Below, piece by piece: positions 38,530-63,731 of a DNA stretch of 64,000 nt. The DNA comes from a virus (taxonomy: Duplodnaviria; Heunggongvirae; Uroviricota; Caudoviricetes): the IMG/VR virus record IMGVR_UViG_3300026473_000783; one strand, given 5' to 3'. The position numbers and the translations under genes were made by a program. The notes under the pieces are model-generated. The model ran no database searches, was not told the origin of the DNA, and saw nothing but the letters and a program-made list of their open reading frames with translations. Numbering within the stretch: position 1 is the first letter of the stretch; every line of letters begins with the position of its first letter.

Positions 38530-38556
38530 TTTTCGGCATTTTTCTTAAAAACTTTA
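38530..38556 (-). promoter_or_regulatory. sigma-28-type promoter candidate
   Basis: TAAAGTTT-N11-GCCGAAAA upstream of LRR gene. Confidence 0.5.
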
Positions 38557-38587
38557 ACTTATTATAAGAAGTGTTAAAATAAAATTT

Positions 38588-38980: not shown

Positions 38981-38991
38981 AATCAACCATC

Positions 38992-39120
38992 GTAGCAATT
39001 GATAGGCCAATTTAAAACAAACCTATTCGATTTAATAGATAGGATTGTTTAAAGATTTGATAGAAATACTTTAAGTTATTGATTTTACTAGATGTAAAAC
39101 TTTTAATCGATGTCAAAAAA
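38992..39120 (-). promoter_or_regulatory. sigma-54 promoter cassette
   Basis: TTGGCCTATCAATTGCT; UAS 39077-39120. Confidence 0.6.
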
Positions 39121-39158
39121 ATAACTATCAATTCTATAAAATTTTTTAAAAAACATCT

Positions 39159-39311
39159 TCACTCATGTTTTTTACTTTTTTTCTCGTTTTCAATTTCCCA
39201 AGAGTTTTTAAATCGTTTATCTGTTTTACAATAAACCTGACTTTGACATCCACATCCTTTAAATAAAAACATTAAAACTATAGGTGTTAAAAAAAATAAA
39301 ATAGCTTCCAT
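39159..39311 (-). CDS. small membrane peptide (50 aa)
   Basis: MEAILFFLTPIVLMFLFKGCGCQSQVYCKTDKRF...; second gene of a small sigma-54 operon; below ORF-track cutoff. Confidence 0.3.
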   Translation of the reverse strand: MEAILFFLTPIVLMFLFKGCGCQSQVYCKTDKRFKNSWEIENEKKSKKHE

Positions 39312-39326
39312 TTTGGATAATCCTTT

Positions 39327-39434
39327 CTAGTCGAACGCCTCTGACTCTTCATTTAAGACTTTGATATATTCTGCTGATATTGAGCCTGATCTATCCTCTA
39401 CACAGCTCATTTTTGGCATTTTCTTTTTATTCAT
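39327..39434 (-). CDS. small protein (35 aa)
   Basis: MNKKKMPKMSCVEDRSGSISAEYIKVLNEESEAFD; RBS AGGAGATAAAT; directly downstream of sigma-54 cassette 39456-39592. Confidence 0.3.
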   Translation of the reverse strand: MNKKKMPKMSCVEDRSGSISAEYIKVLNEESEAFD

Positions 39435-39455
39435 ATTTATCTCCTATCAATTACT

Positions 39456-39592
39456 GTAGCAATCTTTAGGCCAATCTTTAAATGAATCTATTCGATTTAA
39501 TAGATAGGATTGTTTAAAGATTTGATAGAAACTTTTTAAGTTATTGATTTTATTAGGTGTCAAAGGTTTGTGCGGTGTTTAAAAGATGTTTA
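39456..39592 (-). promoter_or_regulatory. sigma-54 promoter cassette
   Basis: TTGGCCTAAAGATTGCT; UAS 39543-39592; drives two small-peptide genes. Confidence 0.6.
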
Positions 39593-40000
39593 CATAAAAT
39601 AGTCTAAAATAGCTTTTTTTTCTTTAAGATTTTCAAGAGTAATCTCATAGTTAGTATTTCGGACGATCCGAATATATGGATATATATGTTGATTTTTTTC
39701 TAAAGCGATAAGACACAAATCAACCGTTTGCTCTTTTATGTATTGAATGCAATATGATGATATTTCAACGCTTTTTTTACATAAATTATTTGATTGGGTT
39801 GAGATTAAAGAAAGCACTGAATTATCTATTTCTATGTACTTTAAAACTTTTTCTTCACTTAATGAATTAAAATAATTTTTAAAAAGATAAAATTCTTCTT
39901 TTGTACAAAAATTATATTCAGGCCATAAATCAATAGATTGCCAAAAATGGTTTTCTTGAACTTTTTTTAAGAATAATTCTTTAATTTTTTGATTTGTCAT
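39590..40000 (-). CDS. family-B DUF4116-like repeat protein
   Basis: MTNQKIKELF...IRIVRNTNYEITLENLKEKKAILDYFM. Confidence 0.5.
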   Translation of the reverse strand: MTNQKIKELFLKKVQENHFWQSIDLWPEYNFCTKEEFYLFKNYFNSLSEEKVLKYIEIDNSVLSLISTQSNNLCKKSVEISSYCIQYIKEQTVDLCLIALEKNQHIYPYIRIVRNTNYEITLENLKEKKAILDYFM

Positions 40001-40431
40001 TTAAAAGCCTCTAAAACAGCCTTTTTTTCTAATAAATTCTGTATAGTTTTTTCATGATCTGGATTTGGGACTATTCTAACGAAATTGTGGCAATAATTAT
40101 CAACTTCTAAAGATTTAAGACATAAATCAACTGTTTGAGATCTAATATGCACAAGATTGTAAGGGTTGCATTTTATAGCAAATTCACATAATTCTTTGGT
40201 TTGATCTGTTATAGCAGAAAAAATTGAGCTATCTTTTTCTATATATTTTAAAATCTCTTTTTCGCTTAGTTGATTAAGCCAAATAATAAAATCCTCCATT
40301 TCTTCTGGATCACAAATACCGTTAAAAACCCAATCTTCGAAGCAAATAAGGTCATGCGTTAAATTTTCTTTAAATTTTTCTTTAACTTCAATTCTGTTTA
40401 AAAATCTTTTGTAAGGTTTTAAATTTTTCAT
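39997..40431 (-). CDS. family-B DUF4116-like repeat protein
   Basis: ...VRIVPNPDHEKTIQNLLEKKAVLEAFK; 4-nt overlap with next gene. Confidence 0.5.
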   Translation of the reverse strand: MKNLKPYKRFLNRIEVKEKFKENLTHDLICFEDWVFNGICDPEEMEDFIIWLNQLSEKEILKYIEKDSSIFSAITDQTKELCEFAIKCNPYNLVHIRSQTVDLCLKSLEVDNYCHNFVRIVPNPDHEKTIQNLLEKKAVLEAFK

Positions 40432-40439
40432 TTTATCCT

Positions 40440-40859
40440 TTATTTTAAAGCGTTTAAAAGTTCTTTTTTCTTTTTTAGATTTAAAAGAGTTGTCTTAAAA
40501 TCAGGATTTGGGACAATTCTTACATGTTTGTGAATATGAACCTCGTATGAAAATTTATCTAAAGCCGTTAAGCAAATGTCAACAGATTGCTGGTTTTGAT
40601 TAATAAATTCTAAAAGTTCAGGATAAGAATCTAATATAAAAAGAATTGATTCTTCACTTAAGTCTTTTGCGATTATTTTAAAAGATTGTTGAAAGTCTTT
40701 ATCGTATCGAAGGTAAGTTTTTAAATTTTTTTGAGAAAAAATCAATATGTTTTCATTTTTTGTATTTATATAATCTTTTAAAAGCAAGATTTGTTTTTTT
40801 CTTGTAGTAAAAATTACAAACAAAATATATGTTAAAAATCCAAAAAAAACAAAATACAC
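40440..40859 (-). CDS. family-B-like protein with N-terminal TM
   Basis: ...VRIVPNPDFKTTLLNLKKKKELLNALK. Confidence 0.45.
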   Translation of the reverse strand: MYFVFFGFLTYILFVIFTTRKKQILLLKDYINTKNENILIFSQKNLKTYLRYDKDFQQSFKIIAKDLSEESILFILDSYPELLEFINQNQQSVDICLTALDKFSYEVHIHKHVRIVPNPDFKTTLLNLKKKKELLNALK

Positions 40860-40933
40860 GATGTAAATAAGAGATATGGAATCTCTTCATCGGTAAAAAA
40901 TGTTTTATAAGATTTTAAAAAATTCATTTTTTC

Positions 40934-41284
40934 CTATTTTAGGTTTTTATTTCCCTGATTTGGGAAAATTGTTTTTAAAGGATAGTCTCCTCTAATTGTG
41001 TAAAGTAAAAGTTTAGGAGTTCTATAAGCTTGAACGCTTGAATCTCCATGCCAAAGATCTATTGAGTTTTCTAGATCTTTTTTTGAAATCGAGTTAATTC
41101 CTAATTCTTTTAATTTGAATAAAACGGTTTCAACATTTATTGATTTTTTCTCAAGTAAGCATATTGATAAGTCTCTTAAAAAATAAGAGTTAATTATTTC
41201 TTTTTTAGATAAATATTTAATTGAGGTTATTGACTTTTCTGTAATTTCTTTTTCTTCTATTAAAGATTCTGGAACTTTTTTCAT
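40934..41284 (-). CDS. hypothetical protein (116 aa)
   Basis: ORF only. Confidence 0.35.
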   Translation of the reverse strand: MKKVPESLIEEKEITEKSITSIKYLSKKEIINSYFLRDLSICLLEKKSINVETVLFKLKELGINSISKKDLENSIDLWHGDSSVQAYRTPKLLLYTIRGDYPLKTIFPNQGNKNLK

Positions 41285-41394
41285 GTATTCTCCTTATAAG
41301 GATTGTCGGGATTTTTTTAAAAAGCTTTAGCTTTTTTTTAATTTTGATTAAAATCGAGACACTTTTTGATAATTTTATCAAAATAAGTCAAGTT

Positions 41395-42159
41395 CTATTT
41401 TAAAGCTTCTAAAATTGATAGTTTTTCTTTAAGTCCATTTAAGGTGGATTCATAGGTTGAATTATTTGGAACAATTCGGCAAGATAGATATAAATCACTT
41501 TTTTTATACATTTTTAAATATTTAATCCACTCTTTAGCGCTAATATCAAATGGATTGTTTTCACAACAAAGATATCCTTTAAAATTTTCTGGAAATCCTT
41601 TTAATGATTTAAGCTGATTATATACACAATAAAAATCTCCACCAATTTCTTTAGGGCAACCTTCTAATGATTCAAGCAAATTATATGAACAACTAAAACT
41701 TTCATGAACTTTTAATGGACAACCTTTTAATGATTTGAGTTGATTGCGTGAAAAATCAAAATCCCCTTCAACTTCTTTAGGACAGCCTTCTAATGATTTT
41801 AGTTGATTGCTGGAACAGACAAAATCTCCATTAGTTTTTTTAGGACAATCCTCTAATGATTCAAGTTGATTATTTGAACAATCAAAATTGCCATTGACTT
41901 TTTTAGGACAACCCTCTAATGATTTAAGTTGATTATGTGAACAATCAAAAAATCCATTAACTTCTTTAGGGCAACCTTCTAATGATTTGAGTTGATTATT
42001 GGCACAATCAAAAAATCCATCCACAATGCCAAATTGAAAAGGAATTTTTTCCAAATTTCTATCGATAAGATTAACCCCTTGAAAGCAATCTAAAATTCCC
42101 GTTTTTTCAAACTTTTCTTTATTATATTTAGTGATTCCAAAATCTTCAGGTTTTTTCAT
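41395..42159 (-). CDS. family-A LRR-like protein (254 aa, ~8 repeats)
   Basis: CSHNQLKSLEGCPKEVNGFFD-type repeats; RBS AAGAGGAG; sigma-28-like motif 42177-42203. Confidence 0.6.
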   Translation of the reverse strand: MKKPEDFGITKYNKEKFEKTGILDCFQGVNLIDRNLEKIPFQFGIVDGFFDCANNQLKSLEGCPKEVNGFFDCSHNQLKSLEGCPKKVNGNFDCSNNQLESLEDCPKKTNGDFVCSSNQLKSLEGCPKEVEGDFDFSRNQLKSLKGCPLKVHESFSCSYNLLESLEGCPKEIGGDFYCVYNQLKSLKGFPENFKGYLCCENNPFDISAKEWIKYLKMYKKSDLYLSCRIVPNNSTYESTLNGLKEKLSILEALK

Positions 42160-42176
42160 TTATTCTCCTCTTTAAT

Positions 42177-42203
42177 CTTTTCGGAACTATTCTTAAAAAC
42201 TTT
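42177..42203 (-). promoter_or_regulatory. sigma-28-type promoter candidate
   Basis: TAAAGTTT-N11-TCCGAAAA upstream of LRR gene. Confidence 0.5.
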
Positions 42204-42207
42204 AATT

Positions 42208-42759
42208 TTATTTTAAAGCCTCTAAAATGGCTTTTTTCTCTAATAAATTTTTTAAAGTAGTTTCATAATTTGGATTTGGAACAATTCTAATATAATTACA
42301 AGCATTTCTTCTTTTTTGTAAAGCTAAAATACACAAATCAATTGTTTGTTCTTTAATCAGCGCTATGTTATACGGATCTTTTTCAATAGCTAAACGACAT
42401 AAGTAATCGGTTTGATTTCGAACATATTCAAAAGTCCAAGGCGATTTATTTATTGCTAACTCGCATAAAAATTCTGTTTGGTTATTTAAAAATCTAATAC
42501 AGGTTGGAGCTTTTTCAATAGCAGTTTGACAGATCGATTCTGTTTGATTTTTTATAACTTTTAAAATTGAAGGATCTTTCTGTATATATTTTAATAACTG
42601 TTTTTCACTTAATTGATTTAACCAATTTGAAAAATTATTAAATTCTTCTAAAGAACAAACATTGTCTCTAACCCAGAATCTAAATCCTAAGCTTTCTTTT
42701 TTTAATTTTTTTTCAAATAATTGTTTAATCAAATTTAAAATATCCTTTTGTTGGGTCAA
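42208..42759 (-). CDS. family-B DUF4116-like repeat protein (183 aa)
   Basis: ...IRIVPNPNYETTLKNLLEKKAILEALK. Confidence 0.55.
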   Translation of the reverse strand: MTQQKDILNLIKQLFEKKLKKESLGFRFWVRDNVCSLEEFNNFSNWLNQLSEKQLLKYIQKDPSILKVIKNQTESICQTAIEKAPTCIRFLNNQTEFLCELAINKSPWTFEYVRNQTDYLCRLAIEKDPYNIALIKEQTIDLCILALQKRRNACNYIRIVPNPNYETTLKNLLEKKAILEALK

Positions 42760-43087
42760 AATTAAATTTAAGCTTTGATTTTTTTAATAAATAAACCTCT
42801 AAAGTTGATTTTCTCCATTTCGTTAAAACTTCATACGAACCACTTATTCCTAACATTTCTAAAATTACAAAACAATCCTTATTATTTTTGTCTGTATAAG
42901 AGATGTCGAGCAGCAACGTTTTAGAGTCTTTATCAAAATCTGCCATATCGACAGTATAGTTTTTAGTCTTATTATCAACAAGCATTAAAAACCCTAAATC
43001 TCCCATTTTTAAAACGCGACAAGATTTTATAAATTTTTTCTTTACTTTTTGAGCTTTTTTATTATAGGCTTGAACTTTTATTTTCAT
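42725..43087 (-). CDS. hypothetical protein (120 aa)
   Basis: ORF overlapping start of 42208..42759. Confidence 0.35.
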   Translation of the reverse strand: MKIKVQAYNKKAQKVKKKFIKSCRVLKMGDLGFLMLVDNKTKNYTVDMADFDKDSKTLLLDISYTDKNNKDCFVILEMLGISGSYEVLTKWRKSTLEVYLLKKSKLKFNFDPTKGYFKFD

Positions 43088-43161
43088 AAATTTCCTTCAT
43101 ATAAAATTTTAACATAAATTCTATATAAATGATTATTTTTTTATAAATATCTCAAATCGAA

Positions 43162-43419
43162 TCAATCCTTAAATGAGTCAATAATTGTTTTCTTTTCTAA
43201 TAAATTTTTAAGAGTTGTCTCATAGTCGGGATTTGAAACTATTCTAACATGTTTATAATTAGCTTTATTTTGTCTTAAAGCTAAAAGACAGGTATTAACA
43301 GATTGATCCGGAACGATTTCTAAAGAACCGGAAAGTTGTTCAATAAATGTTTGACCCATTTTGATTGTTTTAAAGTGATCTTCTATAAAATAAAAAGCGA
43401 CTGATTTAGTTTCAGTCAT
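43162..43419 (-). CDS. family-B-like short protein
   Basis: ...VRIVSNPDYETTLKNLLEKKTIIDSFKD; track start 43452 lies inside repeat copy B, Met 43419 preferred. Confidence 0.45.
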   Translation of the reverse strand: MTETKSVAFYFIEDHFKTIKMGQTFIEQLSGSLEIVPDQSVNTCLLALRQNKANYKHVRIVSNPDYETTLKNLLEKKTIIDSFKD

Positions 43420-43430
43420 AACTTTTTCAA

Positions 43431-43648
43431 CTTTTTGGCCGCAATATATCATTGAACCAATCGGAGATTATCTCCGAAATCCTCCGTTAGAAGGTTCTTC
43501 TCTCATCAAAACCAATATATGGTCTCTCCAGAAGCTTAAACTCTAATTTTTTAGAGTTTTCCCCATTAAAGTGGGGTCATGAACTTATTTAACCACTTCT
43601 TCCCTATTTTGTCAAGAAAAAAATAACTCAATAAAATCAATTACTTAG
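43431..43648 (-). repeat. structured ~220-bp repeat, copy B (solo)
   Basis: About 95% identical to 47988-48168 and to the reverse complement of 49865-50085; contains hairpins CCCCA-N6-TGGGG, CGGAGATTATCTCCG, AACTCTA-N7-TAGAGTT; begins with partial UAS and TTGACA-N17-TTAAAT; ends at start of 43162..43419. Confidence 0.6.
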
Positions 43649-43860
43649 TATAGGGGTGTATGATTTTATTGTTGTTTTATGACAAAAACATTAGTAAAAA
43701 CAACTTGAATGAAGTTGAGGGTTTTATGTTTTGTAAATTATTGTTTTTACTTGATAAAATATATTTTAGCAACACTCAAGTATCACTCCCCTGCTTTAAC
43801 TATTTGAATTGATTAGATGTTAAAATTATAGTCAGTGCTTAGAAAATATACAGGTCATTT

Positions 43861-44328
43861 TTATTTTAAAGCTTCTATAATTTCTTTTTTCTCTTTAAGG
43901 TTTTTAAGAGTTGTTTCAAAATCTGGATTTGAAACAATTCTAACATATCTATAAACAAAGCGTTCTTGTTTTAAAGCTAAAAGACATAAATCGACACTTT
44001 GTATTTTTATGCTTTTTAAACAAAGCGGATTACGACTAATCGCAAGTTTAGAAAAATGATAGGCTTGTTCTGAAACAATCCCAATAACCCAAGAATTGGC
44101 CTCAATTGATTTTAAGATAAATTGTTCAGTTTTATTTTCTATTGCTGAAAAAATAGTGTGGTCTTTTTTAAAAAGATCAAACAACTCCTCGTCGTTGAGT
44201 TGATTTGGCCATTTTTTGAAAAGAATCATTTCATTTTCTGTACAGATATTTTCTTTTACCCAATTAACAAATAAATAGTTTTTGTTTTTTTTCTTTTCAA
44301 ATAAATTTTTAATTTCTTGATTTGTCAT
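43861..44328 (-). CDS. family-B DUF4116-like repeat protein
   Basis: MTNQEIKNLFE...VRIVSNPDFETTLKNLKEKKEIIEALK. Confidence 0.55.
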   Translation of the reverse strand: MTNQEIKNLFEKKKNKNYLFVNWVKENICTENEMILFKKWPNQLNDEELFDLFKKDHTIFSAIENKTEQFILKSIEANSWVIGIVSEQAYHFSKLAISRNPLCLKSIKIQSVDLCLLALKQERFVYRYVRIVSNPDFETTLKNLKEKKEIIEALK

Positions 44329-44330
44329 TT

Positions 44331-44531
44331 CTACTCTTTTAAAACTTTAATGGAATCTTCTGGTAAAACAACAGCTAAAGTTCTGCCATCATCCCATTTA
44401 ATCCAAATTTGCGTTTGTTTAAAGTATAAAAGCTCTCTAATCTCTTCAATAATACCTCTTTGACCAACATTGATTGGATCTGGATCAACTCCCATGTGAA
44501 CTAATTCCACTTTATCGCCAACTTTAAACAT
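44331..44531 (-). CDS. DUF4314-like small protein
   Basis: FKVGDKVELV...GQRGIIEEI......IWIKWDDGRTLAVV resembles DUF4314. Confidence 0.4.
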   Translation of the reverse strand: MFKVGDKVELVHMGVDPDPINVGQRGIIEEIRELLYFKQTQIWIKWDDGRTLAVVLPEDSIKVLKE

Positions 44532-44675
44532 TTCAGCTCCTATTTGTTATAGCTTATCATTAAATATATAATTTAAAAACTTTTTTTAATATAAGTATTT
44601 TTTTGAGAAATTATTATTTTTAAATTTAAAAATGTCTTTTTTTATATTTTTTTCATTTAAAATGAGGGGGTAGAT

Positions 44676-44858
44676 ATGAGTTCAAATTATGAAGTTGTTG
44701 TTATTCGAAGTAAAGATGATATTCGAGTTTTAAAAAGTGGATTAACTAAAAAAGAAGCAGAAGCGATAGCGAAAGACTGGGAAGAGACAATTTTTAATAG
44801 AGATGTTTTTTTTGATCCAGTTCCTAAAGTTAAAGTTCGTGTATCAAAGGAAGAGTAA
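44676..44858 (+). CDS. hypothetical protein (60 aa)
   Basis: RBS GAGGGGG. Confidence 0.4.
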   Translation: MSSNYEVVVIRSKDDIRVLKSGLTKKEAEAIAKDWEETIFNRDVFFDPVPKVKVRVSKEE

Positions 44859-44901
44859 TCTCTTCCTTTTTTTATATTTGATATTTTTCAAGTTTTTCCA
44901 A

Positions 44902-45114
44902 TTATTCTTTTTCTAATTTTTCTAAATTTTTAAGTAAAGAAGCATAAGCTGAATTGGCTTCTTCCGATGAATCAAATAAAATCTCCAACTCTGCAGAGTC
45001 CCCTAGTGTCCACACATCAAAAGCCCAATAATCTCCATTCTTATAAACACCTGCAGTTTTACAAACTTTTGAAAGTGATATAAAATAAAATGATCGACTT
45101 GTTTTAATAATCAT
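44902..45114 (-). CDS. hypothetical protein (70 aa)
   Basis: ORF only. Confidence 0.35.
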   Translation of the reverse strand: MIIKTSRSFYFISLSKVCKTAGVYKNGDYWAFDVWTLGDSAELEILFDSSEEANSAYASLLKNLEKLEKE

Positions 45115-45177
45115 AAAACCACCTATTCTTCCATTTCTTCTATTTTTTGACTAAGCTGTAAAAAAGCTTTTTCCGTA

Positions 45178-45498
45178 TCAATAATCATCACGGTCAACAA
45201 GTTTCCACTTGGGAGAAGTGTCTTCCTTGTTAATTTCCTCGAAAGGTCCAATTTCTTTTAAAGTATTAGAAAGTTCTTTGAATGTGGTTCTATGAAAGAT
45301 TTGTCGCATAGTCCAGGTAGTTACCGTAACCGAACCATCTTTATTTTTTTTCATGCGAGTAATGTTGTTAAATTCGGCGGCATCTTCTACCCCTAGTTTA
45401 AGCCAGAACTTGTTGTATTTTGCTGTAAAAGATTGTTTTTCTTGTTTTGTCATCTCTACCTCTTTCTTTATTATATTCCTATCTGTTTTAATTATCAT
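45178..45498 (-). CDS. hypothetical protein (~106 aa)
   Basis: Internal Met with RBS GGAGG, 18 nt from sigma-28-like -10 (45516-45542); track ORF over-extended. Confidence 0.45.
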   Translation of the reverse strand: MIIKTDRNIIKKEVEMTKQEKQSFTAKYNKFWLKLGVEDAAEFNNITRMKKNKDGSVTVTTWTMRQIFHRTTFKELSNTLKEIGPFEEINKEDTSPKWKLVDRDDY

Positions 45499-45515
45499 CT
45501 CGACCTCCAAATCAC

Positions 45516-45542
45516 TTATCGGTACATTTTTTTTAAACTTTA
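45516..45542 (-). promoter_or_regulatory. sigma-28-type promoter candidate
   Basis: TAAAGTTT-N11-ACCGATAA. Confidence 0.5.
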
Positions 45543-45544
45543 AT

Positions 45545-45865
45545 TTAGCAATCAAAAAACTTATCACATCGCGTTAAAACTTTCCCTCTTTTTCGCCAAA
45601 ACTCAACAATTTCAAGGGAGGATTGAGCTGTTTGGTCAAAATACTCAAAAGGGGTTAGTTTTTGATTTAAAGCTTCTTCAACCTTATCGTAAAGATAGGT
45701 CGCAACGCCTTTTCTTCTGTATTTTGGATCAACAAAGCAATTAAAAGCGATAAGTTTGTTTTCTTTTTTTAAAACAGTTAAAAATCCAACCCTAAAATCG
45801 TCATCCCAAACTTCGAATTGTAAATTTTCACTATTTTTTATTGTTTTTGTTATTTTTAAATCCAT
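45545..45865 (-). CDS. GNAT-family N-acetyltransferase
   Basis: VDPKYRRKGVATYLYDKVEE; sigma-54 cassette TTGGCACCTTTATTGCT with ATG 14 nt from -12. Confidence 0.5.
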   Translation of the reverse strand: MDLKITKTIKNSENLQFEVWDDDFRVGFLTVLKKENKLIAFNCFVDPKYRRKGVATYLYDKVEEALNQKLTPFEYFDQTAQSSLEIVEFWRKRGKVLTRCDKFFDC

Positions 45866-45875
45866 AACTTGATGA

Positions 45876-46022
45876 TAAGCAATAAAGGTGCCAAGTCATG
45901 TCGTTTTTATTTCATTTAAAAACGCTTCTAAACGAGCACTGTTTAACTTTTTTACAAATCTTAGCTAAGAGGTTGATTTTGTTAGGTGTCGAGCTTATAG
46001 GCGATGTTAAGAGGTTTTACAC
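45876..46022 (-). promoter_or_regulatory. sigma-54 promoter cassette
   Basis: TTGGCACCTTTATTGCT; UAS 45971-46022. Confidence 0.65.
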
Positions 46023-46142
46023 ATTTTTTAATCTAAATAATTGAAATTTAATCGTTTTAATTTAAAAGTTTAAGATTGCGACTTTTTTGAGTCCATATTT
46101 TTATTATATAAACAAAATAGGGGGTTTTAACCCCCTTTAAAA

Positions 46143-46928
46143 TCATTGACCTTGCTTTAAATTCTTTAAATCAAGAAGAGGTGTTCCGCCACTTCCAATA
46201 ACTGTTGGCAGGACTCCATTCCATTTTTCAATAGCCATTTTTTGTAAAAGCATAGGAGTGATAGAGGATCTAAGCAAAGCTTGAGCCTCAGCTTGTCCCT
46301 TTGCTGTATTCACTAGAGCTTGCGATTCATTTTTTGCTTTTTCAGCTAAATACAAAGCTCTTTTTGCTTCTTGCTCAGCCACCATTTTTTGTTCAACTGA
46401 TTGCGTATATTCTCGGCTAAAAGTTAAGTTCACAATTGATACATCTCGAACCTTAATATTGTATTTAGCTAATCGTTCAATTAAATCATTATCAATCTCA
46501 TCTTTAAGCTCTTGACGCTTCGATAAAACTTCATCAAGGGTTCTTTTTGAAGTTGATTTTTTCAAAACCTCATGAACAGCAGGGTAAAGAACTCGTTCAA
46601 CCGCAGTATCTTCGTCTCCAAATTCAGAAACAATTTTTACAACATTTTCTGGATCAACCTGATAGTTTACAGCTATATGAACTTCAACTTGTTGATTTCC
46701 TAATGCAACTGCTTCACTTTTTTCAATATCAGCTTTTTGTGTTTGAACCGAGATTTTTCTAACAGAAGAAACCAATGGAAACACGAAATAAACATCCGGT
46801 TCCAAAGGCTTTTCATTAACTTTTCCAAAAGTTACACGAACACCTCGTTCACCAGGGCCAACGACTGTACAAGAGCTGATTATCCCGAGCACTGAGAGTA
46901 GCGTTAATAGTTTTGTTATTTTTTTCAT
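46143..46928 (-). CDS. SPFH/band-7 domain lipoprotein
   Basis: Lipobox LGIISSC; prohibitin/HflC-like core followed by coiled coil. Confidence 0.65.
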   Translation of the reverse strand: MKKITKLLTLLSVLGIISSCTVVGPGERGVRVTFGKVNEKPLEPDVYFVFPLVSSVRKISVQTQKADIEKSEAVALGNQQVEVHIAVNYQVDPENVVKIVSEFGDEDTAVERVLYPAVHEVLKKSTSKRTLDEVLSKRQELKDEIDNDLIERLAKYNIKVRDVSIVNLTFSREYTQSVEQKMVAEQEAKRALYLAEKAKNESQALVNTAKGQAEAQALLRSSITPMLLQKMAIEKWNGVLPTVIGSGGTPLLDLKNLKQGQ

Positions 46929-46942
46929 ATTTTCTCCTTTTT

Positions 46943-47320
46943 TTATTTGAAAAGATTTACATTTTCGTAAACTTTTTTATTTTCAAAATAACCTTCAACT
47001 AAATTATCAATACTCTCAATTAAAGAATCAACATCTATATCATGAAGAGTTTGAGAGTTTTTTCTTTTAATAAATGATCCATTTGATAGAGTTCCAATTT
47101 GAATATCGTAATAATCCTTATAGTTTAAAGTAATTAAAACATGTTTTTTATGTTTCAACCCATTAACTTTAAAAATTAAACCACCTAAATGATTTTTATT
47201 ATCTTCATTTAAGAATTGATTTTCTTTAAAGCTTTTAAAAGAAGAAGCTCCCCAAGCGTAAAGAGAGTTTAGGTCTAGGCTTTTTAATTGATTAAAAATA
47301 ATATTTCCAACATTTTCCAT
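46943..47320 (-). CDS. hypothetical protein (125 aa)
   Basis: Sigma-28-like motif 47341-47367. Confidence 0.45.
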   Translation of the reverse strand: MENVGNIIFNQLKSLDLNSLYAWGASSFKSFKENQFLNEDNKNHLGGLIFKVNGLKHKKHVLITLNYKDYYDIQIGTLSNGSFIKRKNSQTLHDIDVDSLIESIDNLVEGYFENKKVYENVNLFK

Positions 47321-47340
47321 AAAATCTCCATTCTATCAAT

Positions 47341-47367
47341 TTATCGGAAAGTTTTTTAAAAACTTTA
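47341..47367 (-). promoter_or_regulatory. sigma-28-type promoter candidate
   Basis: TAAAGTTT-N11-TCCGATAA. Confidence 0.5.
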
Positions 47368-47370
47368 GCT

Positions 47371-47844
47371 TTATTTTAAAGAATCTAAAATAGCTTTTTT
47401 TTCATATAAATTCTTAAGAGTTGTCTCATAATCTGGATTTGGGACGATTCGAACAAAACGATAACTAGAAAAACTTTCTTTTACTAAAGCTAAAATACAC
47501 AAGTCAACGCTTTGTTCTTTTACATAACCAATGGTCAAAGAGTTTCCTCTTACAGCTAATTCACACATTTCTTTTGTTTGATCTTTGATAAATCTAATGG
47601 AAAATGAGTTGACTTCAATCGACATTTCACAGAGAGTTTTTGTTTGATTTTTAATTACAGCTAAAATCGAACAATCACGCTCAATGTAATTTAAAAGTTC
47701 TGATTCTTCAATTGAATTAAAATAATTCGATAAAAGATCAAATTCTTTTTTTGTACAAACCGACTTATCAATCCATTCAAAGAAAAAATCATCGGTTTTT
47801 TGAAATTTTTCTTCAAATATTTTTTGAATATCTCTACTCTTCAT
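47371..47844 (-). CDS. family-B DUF4116-like repeat protein
   Basis: ...VRIVPNPDYETTLKNLYEKKAILDSLK; preceded by repeat copy A and 65-bp leader shared with nuclease gene 50138. Confidence 0.55.
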   Translation of the reverse strand: MKSRDIQKIFEEKFQKTDDFFFEWIDKSVCTKKEFDLLSNYFNSIEESELLNYIERDCSILAVIKNQTKTLCEMSIEVNSFSIRFIKDQTKEMCELAVRGNSLTIGYVKEQSVDLCILALVKESFSSYRFVRIVPNPDYETTLKNLYEKKAILDSLK

Positions 47845-48168
47845 TTATTTATCCAATAGCCTTTTTTTTCATATCTTTATTTTACATTTTTTTATTTAAA
47901 AAAACAACTATTTTAAATACTTGTCTCCTTTTTGGTCGCAATATATCATTGAACATTTATTCAGTGGGTTTCGATGAGAACGTGTATCTTTTTGGTCGCA
48001 ATATATCATTGAACCAATCGGAGATTATCTCCGAAATCCTTCGTTAGAAGGTTCTTCTCTCATCAAAACCAATATATGGTCTCTCCAGAAGCTTAAACTC
48101 TCCGAGGAGTTTTCCCCATTAAAGTGGGGTCATGAACTTATTTAACCACTTCTTCCCTATTTTGTCAA
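47845..48168 (-). repeat. structured repeat copy A plus shared 65-bp leader, immediately 3' of tnpB
   Basis: Element 47988-48168 abuts tnpB stop (48178); 27-nt terminal segment duplicated (47928-47954 and 47988-48014) around a unique 33 nt; 47845-47927 is the inverted copy of 50086-50147. Confidence 0.6.
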
Positions 48169-50085
48169 ATAAAAGATTCAAAGAATTTTATTGTTTTTCT
48201 TTGTATTTGAAATTTTAATAAGACCTCTTCCAACTTTATAAATAACAAGTGCGGCATTATGATCTGCGTCCATTCTGTAATTACAACTGGTACAGATAAA
48301 TTTTTTGTCTTTTCGACTATCTTGATCCGTCTTCCCACAACAGCTACAAGTTTGAGAAGTGAACTTAGGGTCAACTTTTTTAACATTTTTTGAGTACTCA
48401 TTTAATTTTTGAGCAAAATAACCCCAGTTTTTAGAAAGAATAGATCTGTTTAAACCAGTTTTTTGAGAAACTTTCTTTCCAGGATTGTCAACATTGCCTT
48501 TAGCTGTTTTTGTCATATTTGATATTTTTAAATCTTCAATATAGATATCTTCACTTTTTTTCGCAATTAAAGTGGCTTCTTTTTTTAGAAAATTTTCTTT
48601 TTGTCTTTTAAGTTTTAATTGAAGCTTTGAGATTTTTCTAATTTCTTTTTTAAAATTTTTAGAGTCTCTATCTTTTTTTCTTCTATACAACATAGATTTC
48701 TTTTTTGGAATTATTTTTTCTAAATTTAAAATATATTCTGGAAAATCAATGCTTTTATATTTGACCTGATTTGGGTTTTTATTTGACACAATCGCAATAG
48801 CGGTTTTTGTTGAAATACCTCGGTCAATTCCAACTGAGCTTTTTTTGACAACTTCTTTTTTTACAGTTTTTTCTTGAATAGAAAAAATTACAAACCACTC
48901 ACTTCCCTCTTTTTTAAACTGAACAGTTCTTACATTTTCAACTAGAAAAGGTTTAAAGCATTTAAATTTCAAATATCCAAGGTCAAATTTTTCTTTTATA
49001 TCTTCATAATTTTTAGAAATACAAAAATAAGCATATGAAGAATTTGAATTTTCTTCAAAAGTCGTGTTCCATAAATTTTTAAACGCATTTTTAAAACCAA
49101 TAAATCCACTGTCTCTCTCACTTTTATAGCGAGGAATTCCAGCTTTTTTCGGGTCTTTTTTTAAATTTCTAAAAAATTGTTTATAAGAATCCTCACTTTT
49201 ATCAAATACATTATTAAAAAAGCTTGAACAAAACGGAAGAATTTTGTTTTTACGATTCTTTTTCATTTGAGTAAATTCTTTTTGTAGAACAGCTTTTGAA
49301 AAATTTTCATTTTTAAATGAACTTTGGAAATGATAAGGAATCTTGATTGAAAATACTTTTTTGTCTTTTTTCGATAAGTTCAGCTCTTTTCCAATGTTTG
49401 AATTAAGCCTGTTTTCAAAATTAAAGAAAACAACTGTTAAAAAACTTCTTAATTTATTCCGTTCCTTTAACTCTTCTTCTTTTTCGCTATCTTTTAGTTT
49501 TTTAAATTTATCAAAACTTGCTGAAATCAACTCATTTAATTCTTTAATTCTACGATCCGAAATTTTGATCGATTGTCTTTCCGCGATTTTTATTATTTGT
49601 TTCGCATCGAAAATATCTATTTTGTCTTTTTTCTCAATTTTATTAAAATTATAAAAATCTTGAGATTCTATTTGTTTTTCAACAATCGCATTCCATAAAT
49701 CTTTAGAAGCATTTTCCATTTTTTCTAAAATTGATCTCTGTTTTTCATTTAAATATAGTTTATATTTATAGTTTTTTATAGTCGTTTCCATATATTCATT
49801 TAAACACATTTTTCAATAAAAATAAAGAATTAAGACTTTGAACCTAAAAAAATATGTATTTTTCTAAGTAATTGATTTTATTGAGTTATTTTTTTTCTTG
49901 ACAAAATAGGGAAGAAGTGGTTAAATAAGTTCATGACCCCACTTTAATGGGGAAAACTCTAAAAAATTAGAGTTTAAGCTTCTGGAGAGACCATATATTG
50001 GTTTTGATGAGAGAAGAACCTTTTAACGAAGGATTTCGGAGATAATCTCTGATTGGTTCAATGATATATTGCGACCAAAAAGGAG
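47988..50085 (-). mobile_element. candidate TnpB-only IS200/IS605-like (IS1341-type) element, or tnpB inserted between inverted promoter-leader repeats
   Basis: tnpB bracketed by inverted ~200-bp repeats; no tnpA; the right-end/omega-RNA-like structured sequence sits directly after the tnpB stop. Confidence 0.45.
48178..49809 (-). CDS. tnpB: TnpB-family RNA-guided endonuclease homolog (IS200/IS605 OrfB / Cas12-like), 543 aa, catalytic motifs intact
   Basis: N-term NYKYKLYLNEKQRSILEKM...LWNAIVEK (TnpB HTH pattern); RuvC-I VGIDRGI; RuvC-II IYIEDLKISNM; zinc finger CSCCG...CTSCNYRM; RuvC-III DADHNAALVI; ~140 aa longer than typical TnpB. Confidence 0.75.
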   Translation of the reverse strand: MCLNEYMETTIKNYKYKLYLNEKQRSILEKMENASKDLWNAIVEKQIESQDFYNFNKIEKKDKIDIFDAKQIIKIAERQSIKISDRRIKELNELISASFDKFKKLKDSEKEEELKERNKLRSFLTVVFFNFENRLNSNIGKELNLSKKDKKVFSIKIPYHFQSSFKNENFSKAVLQKEFTQMKKNRKNKILPFCSSFFNNVFDKSEDSYKQFFRNLKKDPKKAGIPRYKSERDSGFIGFKNAFKNLWNTTFEENSNSSYAYFCISKNYEDIKEKFDLGYLKFKCFKPFLVENVRTVQFKKEGSEWFVIFSIQEKTVKKEVVKKSSVGIDRGISTKTAIAIVSNKNPNQVKYKSIDFPEYILNLEKIIPKKKSMLYRRKKDRDSKNFKKEIRKISKLQLKLKRQKENFLKKEATLIAKKSEDIYIEDLKISNMTKTAKGNVDNPGKKVSQKTGLNRSILSKNWGYFAQKLNEYSKNVKKVDPKFTSQTCSCCGKTDQDSRKDKKFICTSCNYRMDADHNAALVIYKVGRGLIKISNTKKNNKIL

Positions 50086-50147
50086 ACAAGTATTTAAAAT
50101 AGTTGTTTTTTTAAATAAAAAAATGTAAAATAAAGATATGAAAAAAA
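49865..50147 (+). repeat. structured repeat copy C (inverted relative to A) plus 65-bp leader running into nuclease gene
   Basis: Begins with truncated UAS (taagtaattgattttattgag), then TTGACA 49898-49903 -N17- TTAAAT 49921-49926, then structured region, then leader identical to the one upstream of 47371..47844. Confidence 0.6.
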
Positions 50148-50998
50148 TTATTTATTTAATCGTACTTATCGCCCCTCTTTGTTATGGATATTCATTTAAA
50201 AAATTATTTAAAGAAGTTGAAAAATCTTTTCACCAAGATCATAAAACAACTTCCCATAAAGTCAACAAAGGTCAAATTCAAATTCCAAACGAACCATTCA
50301 CCAAGGCTGAAGCTCCCCAATCTGTTAGTTATGGAGAATCTTTTGGTCGATGTGACGTTTTTTTTCCTAAAAAAAGAGCCCCTGCTATTGATTCAAGACT
50401 AACCTCTAAATCAAGATCAATCTGCTCAACTAAATTTGCGGTCCTTTATTCAACTGATTACAAATCTCCTATTTATACGATTGAAAAACTTTCTTATTTA
50501 AATTTTGTATCTAAAAAAGTGGAAAGATCAAACAAGTTTAAAGAAGATTATAGATTGAAAGATTCTGAAAAATCAACACTTGATGACTATAAAGAAGTCT
50601 CTTTTCAATTCGATAGAGGCCACAATGTGCCTTCTGGAGATTTTGTTGGAGGGTCTGAATTTGAAAATGAAGAAACCTTCTACCTTTCCAATATGTCAGC
50701 CCAAGACGCAACTCTGAATAGAGGTATTTGGGCCAAATCTGTAGAAAAAGCGGTTAGAAGCTATGTTCAAAGATCTTCTGGTGATATTTATGTATTTACA
50801 GGTGGCTATTATGGAAAAAATCCGGTTAGATTTGGCAAAAGTAAAGTGGCTATACCAAATTATTTCTGGAAATTGGTTTATGACGATTATACTAAAAAGT
50901 CATGGGTTTATTGGATTGAAAATAATTCAACAGATAAGCTTAAAGTTTTGTCTTATCAAGAATTTGTCGATAAAACTCAACTTAAGCTTTTAGATTAA
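50138..50998 (+). CDS. secreted DNA/RNA non-specific endonuclease (Serratia-nuclease/NucA family)
   Basis: Signal peptide; DRGHNVPSGDF and FYLSNMSAQDATLNRGIWAKSVE match the DRGH...N...N.G.W..E active-site signature. Confidence 0.65.
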   Translation: MKKIIYLIVLIAPLCYGYSFKKLFKEVEKSFHQDHKTTSHKVNKGQIQIPNEPFTKAEAPQSVSYGESFGRCDVFFPKKRAPAIDSRLTSKSRSICSTKFAVLYSTDYKSPIYTIEKLSYLNFVSKKVERSNKFKEDYRLKDSEKSTLDDYKEVSFQFDRGHNVPSGDFVGGSEFENEETFYLSNMSAQDATLNRGIWAKSVEKAVRSYVQRSSGDIYVFTGGYYGKNPVRFGKSKVAIPNYFWKLVYDDYTKKSWVYWIENNSTDKLKVLSYQEFVDKTQLKLLD

Positions 50999-52128: not shown

Positions 52129-52634
52129 AAAAACCTGAAGATTTTGGAATCACTAAATATGATAAGAAAAAGTTTAAAAAAACTGGAATTTTAGATTGCT
52201 TCCAGAATGTCAATTTAAGTAATCTAAAATTAACAAAAATTCCCTTTAACTTTGGAACCATTGAAGGTTTTTTTTCTTGCTCAAACAATAATTTAAACTC
52301 ATTAAAAGGATCTCCAAGAATTGTTTCAGGTAGCTTTTATTGTTTTAACAATAAATTAAAATCATTAAAAAATTCTCCAGAAAAAGTTTTTTGTGACTTT
52401 TATTGTGATAATAATAAATTAAAATCTTTAAAAAATATATCAGAATGCCATCGAGACGTTTATTGCGAAGAAAATCCGATAGATATGACAGTAAAAGACT
52501 GGATTGAGGTTTTAGAAAAATGTCCAAATAGCGATTTATTCAAATACTGTCAAATAACTTCTGACAATTCAACTTATGAGAATGTCTTAAATTGTCTTAA
52601 AGAGAAATTAGCTATTTTAGAAGCTTTAGATTAA
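52125..52634 (+). CDS. family-A LRR-like protein
   Basis: GTG start overlapping PTH2 stop (GTGA); VKKPEDFGITKYDKKKF...; tail YCQITSDNSTYENVLNCLKEKLAILEALD. Confidence 0.55.
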   Translation: MKKPEDFGITKYDKKKFKKTGILDCFQNVNLSNLKLTKIPFNFGTIEGFFSCSNNNLNSLKGSPRIVSGSFYCFNNKLKSLKNSPEKVFCDFYCDNNKLKSLKNISECHRDVYCEENPIDMTVKDWIEVLEKCPNSDLFKYCQITSDNSTYENVLNCLKEKLAILEALD

Positions 52635-63728: not shown

Positions 63729-63731
63729 AGA

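What the first reader, a model, noticed from the sequence alone, without database searches (positions are those of the whole stretch)
47988..50085. Large, apparently intact TnpB-like nuclease bracketed by inverted copies of a ~190-nt structured repeat (candidate omega-RNA / right end)
The 543-aa ORF has the TnpB N-terminal pattern, RuvC-I/II/III residues (GIDRGI, IEDLK, DADHNAA) and a CxxC...CxxC zinc finger, but is about 140 aa longer than canonical TnpB, so it could be a TnpB-to-Cas12-like intermediate. There is no tnpA. Its stop codon abuts a hairpin-rich ~190-nt element whose copies show a compensatory change in one stem (AAACTCTA-N7-TAGAGTTT in copies B and C versus AAACTCTCCGAGGAGTTT in copy A), which is what an RNA scaffold would show. 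A second copy lies inverted 1.7 kb away on the other side of tnpB. IS200/605 elements do not normally have terminal inverted repeats of this size.
Basis: partly seen in the sequence, partly recalled or inferred. Interest (0 to 1): 0.75.

Follow-up and report, generated by a model that had tools for sequence, protein, structure and literature searches.

The report
TnpB nuclease with extra guide-RNA copies
This is an intact RNA-guided TnpB nuclease from a rare lineage, followed by its own structured guide RNA and accompanied by two extra stand-alone copies of that guide-RNA gene, one of them inverted upstream; this explains the "inverted repeats", and a small repeat-spacer-repeat at the RNA's end hints at an early CRISPR-like array.

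Summary
The ORF (48178-49809, minus strand; likely start 49791, 537 aa) is a real, catalytically intact TnpB. It has the RuvC residues D323/E419/D510, a CCCC zinc ribbon and a confident AlphaFold model whose best fold match is ISDra2 TnpB. The extra length is an internal helical REC insertion (about aa 42-148), not an N-terminal extension.

The ~190-nt repeat is real: copy A at 47988-48177, copy B inverted at 49864-50082, copy C at 43431-43648. It most likely encodes the omega-RNA scaffold:
- It starts right after the tnpB stop on the same strand.
- Its 5' part is conserved at the 3' end of a 61%-identical homologue.
- It aligns with the ORF-3'-tail RNA of the nearest relatives, with covarying helices.

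B and C look like stand-alone guide-RNA genes with promoter-like motifs, not terminal inverted repeats; there is no target-site duplication, and no tnpA, cas1 or cas2 in the window.

A new observation is that the last 27 nt of the scaffold recur after a 33-nt spacer. Relatives carry 3-4 such units, so the arrangement is CRISPR-like. However, the window's second unit belongs to a 92-nt perfect copy of B's end plus flank.

Verdict: a new variant of a known kind, of moderate interest.

The parts
48178..49809 (-). tnpB-like gene. The ORF is 543 aa; the probable start is the ATG at 49791, giving 537 aa. RuvC residues D323/E419/D510 and zinc-ribbon cysteines C482/C485/C500/C503 (537-aa numbering). 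The REC lobe is enlarged by an insertion at about aa 42-148.
   Evidence: ORF. Pfam OrfB_IS605 + Cas12f1-like_TNB. Homologue starts. Conserved residues in the 50-sequence alignment. AlphaFold2 pLDDT 83.9, pTM 0.77. Foldseek best match 8h1j ISDra2 TnpB, TM 0.75 on the target. Insertion located in alignments A3 and A10.
47988..48177 (-). Copy A: the guide-RNA (omega-RNA-like) scaffold in cis. It starts just after the tnpB stop codon, on the same strand. It is a chain of six hairpins and ends ...GCGACCAAAAAG at 47988.
   Evidence: Inverted repeats I1/I3. Alignments. RNA fold z = -3.5 on this strand against -2.4 on the other. Homology and covariation with relatives.
48140..48168 (-). Promoter-like TTGACA (48168-48163), 17-nt spacer, TTAAAT (48145-48140) at the 5' end of the scaffold. 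It is present in copies A, B and C and in the homologue L003.
   Evidence: Sequence. Conserved in L003 as TTGACAAAACAGATAAAAGATGGTTAAAT. Function is inferred, not shown.
47955..47987 (-). 33-nt unique stretch immediately 3' of scaffold A (ATACACGTTCTCATCGAAACCCACTGAATAAATG on the minus strand). This is the predicted guide of copy A, or 'spacer 1'.
   Evidence: Sequence. No match elsewhere in the window, in IMG/VR or in phage records.
47928..47954 (-). A': an exact second copy of the last 27 nt of the scaffold (terminal hairpin plus AAAG), 60 nt start-to-start from the first.
   Evidence: Direct repeat D14 and D1. Homologous terminal modules are repeated 3-4 times in relatives.
47863..47927 (-). 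F_L: a 65-nt perfect inverted copy of the flank of copy B (the promoter region plus ATG and A-run of the endonuclease gene). It now lies upstream of the DUF4116 paralog gene at 47371-47844.
   Evidence: Inverted repeat I2, 92 nt at 100% including A'. Sequence. Same junction in the independent contig L001.
49864..50082 (+). Copy B: a stand-alone scaffold copy, divergent from tnpB, 97.7% identical to copy C. Its RNA sense strand points away from tnpB toward the endonuclease gene. The predicted guide is GAGACAAGTATTTAAAATAG....
   Evidence: Fold z = -4.4.
49875..49904 (-). Promoter-like TTGTCA-18-TAAAAT inside the inner end of copy B, pointing at tnpB. Its -35 overlaps, back to back, the TTGACA of copy B's own promoter-like site.
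   Evidence: Consensus scan. The same site occurs in copy C at 43609-43637. Function is inferred.
50083..50147 (+). F_R: the flank of copy B, that is, the upstream region and first 10 nt of the DNA/RNA non-specific endonuclease gene (50138-50998). It is the source of the F_L duplicate.
   Evidence: Endonuclease_NS assignment.
43431..43648 (-). Copy C: a stand-alone scaffold copy 4.3 kb away. Its 3' end lies 11 nt upstream of the ATG of a short DUF4116 paralog (43162-43419). The predicted guide is TTGAAAAAGTTATGACTGAA....

Best explanation
This is a TnpB-omega-RNA (OMEGA-type) RNA-guided nuclease locus of a rare, divergent lineage. It sits in an AT-rich (about 29% GC) genome made mostly of ORFans, possibly a large phage, with no tnpA nearby.

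Shown:
- The gene encodes a complete TnpB fold with an intact RuvC triad and zinc ribbon, plus an enlarged helical REC lobe.
- The ~190-nt repeat is homologous to the structured RNA region that the nearest relatives encode inside the 3' tail of their ORFs. In this lineage it lies wholly downstream of the stop codon.

Inferred:
- Copy A is transcribed on the tnpB strand, either as the mRNA 3' UTR or from its own TTGACA-17-TTAAAT site.
- It folds into about six hairpins and ends at ...GACCAAAAAG. The adjacent 16-20 nt (ATACACGTTCTCATCG...) then serve as the guide for TnpB-mediated DNA cleavage next to an unidentified TAM.
- Copies B and C are stand-alone guide-RNA genes, a phenomenon already described for OMEGA systems. 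They carry the same internal promoter-like site and different 3' flanks, so they would supply different guides in trans.
- Copy B happens to lie head-to-head with tnpB, and its inner end carries a promoter-like site pointing at tnpB. The apparent 'terminal inverted repeat' is therefore two outward-facing guide-RNA modules, one cis and one solo, not the ends of a TIR transposon.
- The 27-nt terminal module is repeated after a 33-nt spacer. This gives a two-unit guide array like the 3-4-unit arrays of the relatives. Whether the second unit works as a guide, or is a scar of templated repair copied from B's end and flank, is open.
For: Protein:
- Pfam domains and PHROG transposase family, E = 3e-46.
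- 7,555 TnpB-family hits; the nearest outside its own cluster is P0008 at 40% identity.
- PDB sequence hits to RdCas12n (3e-23) and ISDra2 TnpB (9e-13).
- D323, C482, C485, C500, C503 and D510 are invariant, and E419 is nearly invariant, in 50 homologues.
- AlphaFold2 pLDDT 83.9. Foldseek best matches are TnpB, Cas12f and Cas12p ternary complexes.

RNA:
- Copy A starts just after the stop codon, on the same strand.
- The 61% homologue P0002 has TTGACAAAA..GGTTAAATAA..CCCCAC overlapping its ORF end, although the adjacent coding tail has a 22-nt indel.
- All four substitutions among copies A, B and C lie in predicted stems, and they stay paired (as G-U) only on the tnpB-sense strand.
- Fold z-scores are -3.5 to -4.6 on that strand.
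- The alignment with the ORF-tail regions of L010 and L011 shows conserved blocks. In it, 92.6% of cells are paired and 10 of 30 pairs change on both sides, against 0-3 in the slid controls.
- An HMM of that alignment also finds L012, which was not used to build it (E = 9e-7), but not the canonical IS605 relatives L013-L015.

Copy census:
- Only three full copies and one 27-nt stub occur in 64 kb plus about 13 kb of extra sequence from the same genome, all within 7 kb of tnpB.

Stand-alone omega-RNAs that act in trans are described in the literature (PMC10691335).

Promoter-like sites: and the sequence itself.
Against: - There are no expression data.
- No TAM, left end, tnpA or empty-site allele could be identified.
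- No Rfam family matches.
- The covariation rests on only three independent lineages, and on a structure predicted from the same alignment.
- In the relatives that region is also protein-coding, which could contribute to the conservation.
- The promoter motifs are consensus matches in AT-rich DNA.
- The head-to-head position of B, and the perfect 92-nt duplicate of B's end plus flank next to A, are not explained by the simple model.
Confidence: 0.62

Rival explanations
1. Proto-CRISPR or TranC-like system. The scaffold acts as a tracr-like RNA, and the terminal 27-nt module plus the following spacer acts as a crRNA-like unit. On this reading, A-33nt-A'-F is a two-unit guide array that evolved, or is evolving, from the omega-RNA 3' end, as in the 3-4-unit arrays of the nearest relatives.
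For: - There is an exact 27-nt repeat with a 33-nt unique spacer directly after the scaffold.
- The nearest relatives have the homologous terminal module in tandem. L010 has four units with start-to-start spacing of 64, 80 and 54 nt. L011 has three units with spacing of 54 and 64 nt. In each, the last unit is degenerate.
- The repeat units start within about 2 nt of the same alignment column and end in ACCA[AG]A[AG]G.
- A canonical IS605 relative (L013) has no such repeats.
- The best PDB sequence hit is Cas12n, which also has an extended REC lobe.
- TranC systems are described intermediates that split the omega-RNA into tracrRNA and crRNA.
Against: - The window has only two units.
- The second unit is part of a 92-nt, 100% copy of copy B's end plus flank, which looks like a segmental copy rather than an acquired spacer.
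- Spacer lengths in the relatives are irregular (about 18-54 nt), unlike Cas1-Cas2 products.
- There is no cas1, cas2 or cas4 in the window and no array by TRF.
- No protospacer was found for the 33-nt spacer or for L010 spacer 1.
- Described TranC arrays have 32-38-nt repeats and at least 3 repeats.
Confidence: 0.2
2. B-tnpB-A is a single transposon with ~190-bp terminal inverted repeats, mobilised in trans by a DDE-type transposase (as for some eukaryotic Fanzor-carrying elements). Copy C would then be a solo TIR.
For: - The two arms are inverted, 93% identical, and end outward at the same sequence, CTTTTTGG.
- Short Logan contigs of this gene and of its homologue break close to both gene ends.
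Against: - There is no target-site duplication. The outer flanks are ACGTGTAT / GAGACAAG.
- Copy B carries about 35 nt at its inner end, shared with the solo copy C and absent from A. B is also closer to C (97.7%) than to A (93%).
- The repeat is an RNA-level structured element homologous to the omega-RNA region of relatives that have no such inverted copy.
- No transposase is present in the window.
Confidence: 0.06
3. The repeat is a mobile promoter or 5'-leader element (MITE-like) of this genome, unrelated to TnpB function. It merely landed next to tnpB.
For: - All three copies point into a downstream gene on the same strand. A/A' face the paralog at 47844, B faces the endonuclease gene, and C ends 11 nt from an ATG.
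- They carry promoter-like hexamers.
Against: - The same element start is conserved at the 3' end of a 61%-identical tnpB in another sample.
- The scaffold is homologous to the ORF-tail RNA of three more distant tnpB genes.
- No copies occur away from tnpB in the roughly 77 kb examined.
Confidence: 0.08
4. The inverted arrangement, or the 92-nt perfect block, is an assembly artefact.
For: - The block is 100% identical, whereas the full copies differ from each other.
- Two contigs end inside or at the edge of the repeats.
Against: - The JGI contig L001 reproduces the left junction base for base, to 5 nt beyond the block.
- An ENA contig from another sample is collinear over 60,966 nt.
- The block (92 nt) is shorter than the k = 141 implied by the names of these ENA contigs.
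Confidence: 0.03

Closest known systems
ISDra2-type TnpB with omega-RNA/reRNA (IS200/IS605 superfamily, OMEGA systems)
   Same: - The fold is the same (Foldseek 8h1j, TM 0.75 on the target), as are the RuvC D-E-D triad and CCCC zinc ribbon.
- A structured RNA of about 150 nt is encoded at the 3' end of the gene, on the same strand.
- The scaffold ends at a sharp boundary followed by unique flank.
   Different: - The protein is 537 aa, with a roughly 107-aa REC insertion.
- The scaffold lies entirely after the stop codon and has its own promoter-like site.
- No tnpA, left-end or right-end DNA hairpins, or TAM were identified.
- A second scaffold copy lies inverted upstream.
Stand-alone (trans-acting) omega-RNAs and PATE-like IS605 derivatives
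   Same: - Copies B and C are scaffold-only copies near an effector gene, each with a different 3' flank.
- Such solo omega-RNAs are reported to work in trans (PMC10691335).
- PATE-like ends-only elements are described in PMC7290912.
   Different: - The 5' extension of B and C shows no significant similarity to the tnpB 3' end or to the tnpB upstream region, so a left-end-plus-right-end origin could not be shown.
- Only two solo copies are seen, both within 7 kb.
Cas12n (type V-N / V-U4), e.g. RdCas12n, PDB 9J09
   Same: - It is the best solved-structure sequence match (E = 3e-23).
- The size is similar (540 aa), it has a REC extension, and its guide-RNA component lies at the ORF 3' end (PMC12216341).
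   Different: - Uncharacterised TnpBs score far higher than Cas12n: 188 bits for P0008 against 86 bits.
- There is no CRISPR array of regular repeats.
TranC (transposon-CRISPR intermediate) systems
   Same: - TranC effectors are TnpB-like proteins whose guide is split into a scaffold-derived tracrRNA and repeat-spacer units. They have no adaptation genes nearby, and some occur in phages.
- The window and its relatives have tandem copies of the scaffold's terminal module.
   Different: - There are only 2 units here and 3-4 in the relatives, with 26-36-nt repeats and irregular spacers.
- The first repeat is still fused to the scaffold.
- LaTranC is only a distant fold match (rank 38).
- Clade membership was not tested.

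Membership tests
TnpB / OMEGA RNA-guided nuclease | Split RuvC with catalytic D-E-D and a C-terminal CCCC zinc ribbon (TNB) | tested here: met
   D323, E419 and D510, plus C482/C485/C500/C503, are conserved in the 50-sequence alignment. Pfam PF01385 and PF07282 both score above their cut-offs.
TnpB / OMEGA RNA-guided nuclease | WED-REC-RuvC-TNB fold | tested here: met
   AlphaFold2 pLDDT 83.9, pTM 0.77. Foldseek 8h1j E = 3e-13, TM 0.75 on the target; 8iaz TM 0.71.
TnpB / OMEGA RNA-guided nuclease | Structured guide RNA encoded at the gene's 3' end on the same strand, ending at the element boundary | tested here: met
   Position and strand. Sharp boundary with three different continuations. Homology and covariation with relatives. 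Expression was not tested.
TnpB / OMEGA RNA-guided nuclease | RNA-guided, TAM-dependent DNA cleavage | not testable with these tools
   This needs a biochemical or plasmid-interference assay. No TAM could be inferred from two or three copies.
IS200/IS605 (IS1341-type) insertion sequence | Left-end and right-end subterminal DNA hairpins, and insertion 3' of a conserved 4-5-nt target | tested here: inconclusive
   The terminal hairpin at the right end is weak as DNA (-4.5 kcal/mol, z = -1.0). The region upstream of tnpB has no significant hairpin (z = 0.5). CTAAG precedes or starts both B and C, but with n = 2 this proves little.
IS200/IS605 (IS1341-type) insertion sequence | Y1 TnpA in cis or elsewhere, and multiple mobile copies | tested here: not met
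   There is no Y1_Tnp or resolvase among 90 ORFs in the window. Only one tnpB copy occurs in about 77 kb. The rest of the genome was not available.
Type V CRISPR-Cas / TranC | CRISPR array of regular direct repeats downstream of the effector | tested here: inconclusive
   The window has two exact 27-nt repeats with a 33-nt spacer. TRF finds no array. Relatives have 3-4 irregularly spaced units.
Type V CRISPR-Cas / TranC | Adaptation genes (cas1/cas2/cas4); optional in many V-U and TranC loci | tested here: not met
   No Cas families were found among the window ORFs.
TIR transposon carrying a TnpB/Fanzor-like gene | Terminal inverted repeats flanked by a target-site duplication | tested here: not met
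   Inverted arms are present but the flanks are ACGTGTAT / GAGACAAG, so there is no duplication. The inner ends are asymmetric.
TldR (nuclease-dead TnpB-like repressors) | Loss of RuvC catalytic residues | tested here: not met
   All three catalytic residues are intact.
Any Rfam RNA family | Covariance-model match at the gathering score | tested here: not met
   There were no matches at gathering thresholds over the whole window. With the E-value threshold, only chance-level hits appeared in 43300-50300.

The most novel reading that the evidence does not exclude
The window and its nearest relatives (the P0008 and P0217 loci) may capture CRISPR-array birth in the act. The last hairpin module of a TnpB omega-RNA is tandemly repeated 2-4 times, with 18-54-nt spacers and a degenerate last unit, and no Cas1 or Cas2 is present. 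In the window, the newest unit was apparently made by copying the end plus flank of a stand-alone omega-RNA gene (B). That would suggest a recombination-based route by which an omega-RNA acquires extra guides and begins to split into tracr-like and crRNA-like parts.
Probability: 0.2. Interest if true: 0.8.

Novelty: new variant of a known kind. Interest (0 to 1): 0.5.

Why it matters
TnpB-omega-RNA systems are the ancestors of Cas12 and are compact genome-editing candidates. This lineage is very rare: two clusters at 90% identity among about 15 billion proteins, and absent from IMG/VR, from the GTDB species representatives and from the JGI contig set searched.

Several features occur together here and could be tested at one small locus:
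- An enlarged REC lobe.
- A guide-RNA scaffold displaced entirely out of the ORF, with its own promoter-like site.
- Nearby stand-alone guide-RNA genes.
- A tandem repeat of the scaffold's terminal module, which relatives extend to 3-4 units.

If the tandem modules are used as guides, the clade would give a natural series (1, 2, 3 and 4 units) for testing how omega-RNAs split into tracrRNA and crRNA, and how arrays arise without Cas1-Cas2. If they are repair scars, they instead record imprecise templated repair at omega-RNA ends.

Tried and rejected
- **Public-collection searches for the repeat.** An exact 24-mer of the repeat gave no hits in IMG/VR, the GTDB genomes or the JGI metagenome contigs. 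A degenerate promoter-box pattern gave no hits in IMG/VR.
- **Related-loci searches with the protein.** The protein, and the two-sequence alignment, found no relatives in any of the three collections. Comparative data therefore come only from exact-protein contig look-ups.
- **Rfam.** No hits at gathering thresholds. With the E-value threshold, only chance-level hits such as rydB and snoRNAs.
- **Protospacer search.** No significant match for the 33-nt spacer or for L010 spacer 1.
- **B/C 5' extension derived from the tnpB 3' end (PATE-like origin).** Rejected; alignment scores are at background (shuffle p = 0.88).
- **B/C 5' extension as the left end upstream of tnpB.** No significant similarity (p = 0.49). 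The same holds for C's other flank against the tnpB upstream region (p = 0.25).
- **Copy C as a simple insertion splitting a DUF4116 gene.** No coding continuation on the other side of C.
- **The 60-nt period as a tandem duplication.** The 33 nt are unrelated to the corresponding scaffold segment (8 of 33 matches by eye).
- **Giant-virus / Fanzor reading.** Not pursued. Genes overlap by 4 nt in operon-like runs, and the content looks phage-like or bacterial. Fanzor2 is only fold match number 19.
- **Taxonomic origin.** Could not be established.


Full report
**1. What is in the sequence**

The minus-strand ORF 48178..49809 (543 aa) is present as described. A cluster representative and a 61% homologue both start at the seventh codon (METTIKNYKYKL / MNHTIKNYKFKL). 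The likely start is therefore 49791, giving 537 aa.

The ORF is flanked by inverted copies of a structured element:
- Copy A lies at 47988-48177 and copy B at 49864-50082. The arms are 114 nt at 98% and 68 nt at 97% identity.
- A third copy, C, lies at 43431-43648 in the same orientation as A.
- B and C are 97.7% identical over 219 nt. They share about 35 nt at the inner end that A lacks. A is 93% identical to them and its homology stops at the tnpB stop codon.

All three copies end at the same outer boundary (...GCGRCCAAAAAG on the RNA-sense strand). After that boundary three unrelated sequences follow, so it is a true element end.

After copy A come 33 unique nucleotides. Then comes an exact second copy of the last 27 nt of the element (A', 47928-47954). 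Then come 65 nt (F_L) that are a perfect inverted copy of the flank of B. That flank includes the ATG and A-run of the endonuclease gene at 50138.

The whole arrangement is reproducible. A JGI contig matches it base for base through the left junction. An ENA contig from another sample is collinear with the window over 60,966 nt.

**2. The protein**

- Family matches: Pfam gives OrfB_IS605 and Cas12f1-like_TNB above threshold. PHROGs gives a transposase family at 3e-46.
- Breadth of homology: a full HMMER scan of 1.84 billion representatives gives 7,555 hits at E<=1e-3. All of the best 150 are shorter or similar-length TnpB-like proteins. The nearest is P0008, at 40% identity over residues 175-524.
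- Rarity: only one cluster at 50% identity carries this architecture. It holds this protein and P0002 (61% identity, 545 aa).
- Catalytic residues: in a 50-sequence alignment the RuvC aspartates D323 and D510 and the four zinc-ribbon cysteines are invariant, and E419 is nearly invariant.
- Structure: the AlphaFold2 model is confident (pLDDT 83.9, pTM 0.77). Its best PDB match is the ISDra2 TnpB ternary complex, followed by Cas12f, Cas12p, ISFba1 TnpB, Cas12m and Fanzor2.
- Extra length: it comes from a helical insertion of about 107 residues after the first strand and helix (aa 42-148), plus loops in the WED domain. This is an enlarged REC lobe, not an N-terminal extension.
- Closest solved structure by sequence: RdCas12n (9J09, 540 aa; E = 3e-23, against 9e-13 for ISDra2 TnpB). 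That protein also has a REC extension and a guide-RNA component at its ORF 3' end (PMC12216341). Uncharacterised TnpBs score much higher than Cas12n, so membership of type V-N is not implied.

**3. The repeat is most likely the guide-RNA scaffold**

*Position.* Copy A begins just after the stop codon, on the coding strand.

*Conservation at the gene's 3' end.* The only available flank of the 61% homologue (L003) has TTGACAAAACAGATAAAAGATGGTTAAATAA...CCCCAC overlapping its ORF end. The window has TTGACAAAATAGGGAAGAAGTGGTTAAATAA...CCCCAC. This match holds even though the coding tails just upstream differ by a 22-nt indel.

*Strand.* The element folds better on the tnpB-sense strand (z = -3.5, -4.4 and -4.6, against -2.4 on the other strand). 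The four substitutions among the copies all fall in predicted stems. They remain paired, as G-U, only on that strand. With four events this is only suggestive (about 1 in 16).

*Homology to the relatives' RNA.* The scaffold aligns with the region that the nearest relatives (P0008 on L010, P0217 on L011) encode inside their ORF 3' tails.
- Conserved blocks include ...GGGGAA, TGGAGA, ATGA.G.AG.AA..TTCT and a terminal ACCA[AG]A[AG]G.
- On that alignment 92.6% of cells are paired. Ten of 30 pairs change on both sides, against 0-3 when partners are slid by 1-3 columns. The first two helices are fully compensated.
- Caveats: there are only three independent lineages, and the structure was predicted from the same alignment.
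- A profile HMM of the alignment finds the third relative, L012, which was not used to build it (E = 9e-7). It does not find the canonical IS605 relatives L013-L015.

Among the three window copies, no pair changes on both sides. No Rfam family matches.

**4. Why the copies look like inverted repeats**

The RNA-sense orientation of A points left, away from tnpB. That of B points right, also away from tnpB. The bracket is therefore two outward-facing guide-RNA modules.

- B is the same type as the solo copy C, not a mirror of A.
- Both B and C carry the inner extension. It contains a promoter-like TTGTCA-17/18-TAAAAT site reading inward; for B, that is toward tnpB. This site lies back to back with the TTGACA-17-TTAAAT site that reads into the scaffold.
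- There is no target-site duplication, and no transposase, tnpA or cas adaptation gene among 90 window ORFs.
- Stand-alone omega-RNAs that work in trans with a compatible effector are already described (PMC10691335), as are ends-only PATE-like IS605 derivatives (PMC7290912).
- I could not show that B and C are composites of a left end and a right end. Their 5' extension has no significant similarity to the tnpB 3' end or to the region upstream of tnpB.
- B and the tnpB 5' region abut at the near-palindromic CTAAG/CTTAG, and C also starts with CTAAG. Two insertions on opposite strands at one target motif would explain the head-to-head layout, but two cases cannot test this.
- In 64 kb plus about 13 kb of further sequence from the same genome there are no other copies.

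**5. The repeat-spacer-repeat**

The 27-nt unit is essentially the terminal hairpin plus the AAAG linker. It recurs once, 60 nt downstream.

The nearest relatives show the same thing on a larger scale:
- L010 has four copies of its homologous 26-nt terminal module. The first overlaps the stop codon, and the start-to-start spacings are 64, 80 and 54 nt.
- L011 has three copies, with spacings of 54 and 64 nt.
- In both, the last copy is degenerate.
- The units start within about two nucleotides of the same alignment column.
- A canonical IS605 relative with tnpA has none.

This resembles the described route from omega-RNA to tracrRNA plus crRNA in TranC and Cas12 systems.

Four points count against a functional array in the window:
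- There are only two units.
- The second unit is contiguous with a 65-nt perfect copy of B's flank, so it may be a product of templated repair or gene conversion between the inverted copies.
- Spacer lengths in the relatives are irregular.
- No protospacer was found.

One side effect is that F_L places a copy of the endonuclease promoter region upstream of the DUF4116 gene at 47844. This may be why the duplicate is retained (inference).

**6. Mechanism proposed**

*Shown:* an intact TnpB fold and active site; a conserved structured RNA element at the gene's 3' end, with a sharp 3' boundary; and two extra copies with different flanks.

*Inferred:*
- Scaffold transcripts come from the internal promoter-like site, or from processing of the tnpB mRNA.
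- They bind TnpB and use the 16-20 nt beyond ...CCAAAAAG as the guide.
- The three or four guides would be ATACACGTTCTCATCG..., GAGACAAGTATTTAAA... (encoded twice) and TTGAAAAAGTTATGAC....
- Cleavage of matching DNA next to an unknown TAM would serve element maintenance by homing, as in IS200/IS605. In a phage-like genome it could instead serve competition with related genomes.

**7. Context and verdict**

The host genome is about 29% GC. It consists mostly of ORFans on one strand, with phage-like genes (anti-repressor, superinfection immunity, exonuclease, DUF2201/ATPase) alongside bacterial-type genes. Its origin was not established.

The finding is real, and the omega-RNA interpretation is largely right. 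It is wrong on the compensatory change and on terminal inverted repeats. It is best filed as a new variant of the known TnpB-omega-RNA kind. A minority reading (about 0.2) sees it as a proto-CRISPR array, which would be of high interest.

Noticed in passing
window 63731-64000; L005 4526-9671 versus L006 1-4877: There is an inversion polymorphism between two assemblies of the same genome, just beyond the right end of the window. A segment of about 5.1 kb carrying some 10 genes is inverted between samples ERZ27251563 and ERZ27251577. The inverted repeats are the ~94%-identical 5' ends of two LRR-like paralog genes, so inversion swaps their C-terminal parts, in a shufflon-like way.
   Followed up: partly
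L010 2906-3129 and L011 1600-1756: The nearest relatives of the TnpB (P0008, P0217) carry 3-4 tandem copies of the last 26-36 nt of their guide-RNA scaffold, with spacers of about 18-54 nt and a degenerate last copy. L010 spacer 2 contains a promoter-like TTGACA-N17-TTAGAT that is 82% identical to L010 934-967.
   Followed up: partly
window 37937-47844: There is an array of DUF4116 paralog genes on the minus strand, all ending in ...RIVPNPDYETTLKNLxEKKAILEALK. Copy C sits 11 nt upstream of an unusually short member (43162-43419).
   Followed up: partly
window 114-419, 38144-38353, 41597-42020, 52284-52436, 63872-64000: 63-nt (21-aa) tandem repeats occur inside a family of LRR-like genes that share the N-terminus MKKPEDFGITKYDK.
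   Followed up: no
window 43793-43847, 37174-37210, 1779-1823, 17253-17307, 20268-20313: A short intergenic repeat (76-86% identical) lies downstream of several genes. It may be a shared terminator or promoter motif.
   Followed up: no
window 47847-47870 (minus strand): The F_L duplicate creates a mini-ORF (MKKKAIG*) from the copied start of the endonuclease gene. It ends 4 nt before the ATG of the paralog gene at 47844.
   Followed up: no
window 47955-47987 versus 48066-48081: The 33-nt spacer contains a 13-of-16 antisense match to the scaffold segment GGTTTTGATGAGAGAA, and it is predicted to pair with that segment in the RNA fold. My rough estimate of the chance expectation is about 0.2, so this may be coincidence.
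   Followed up: partly
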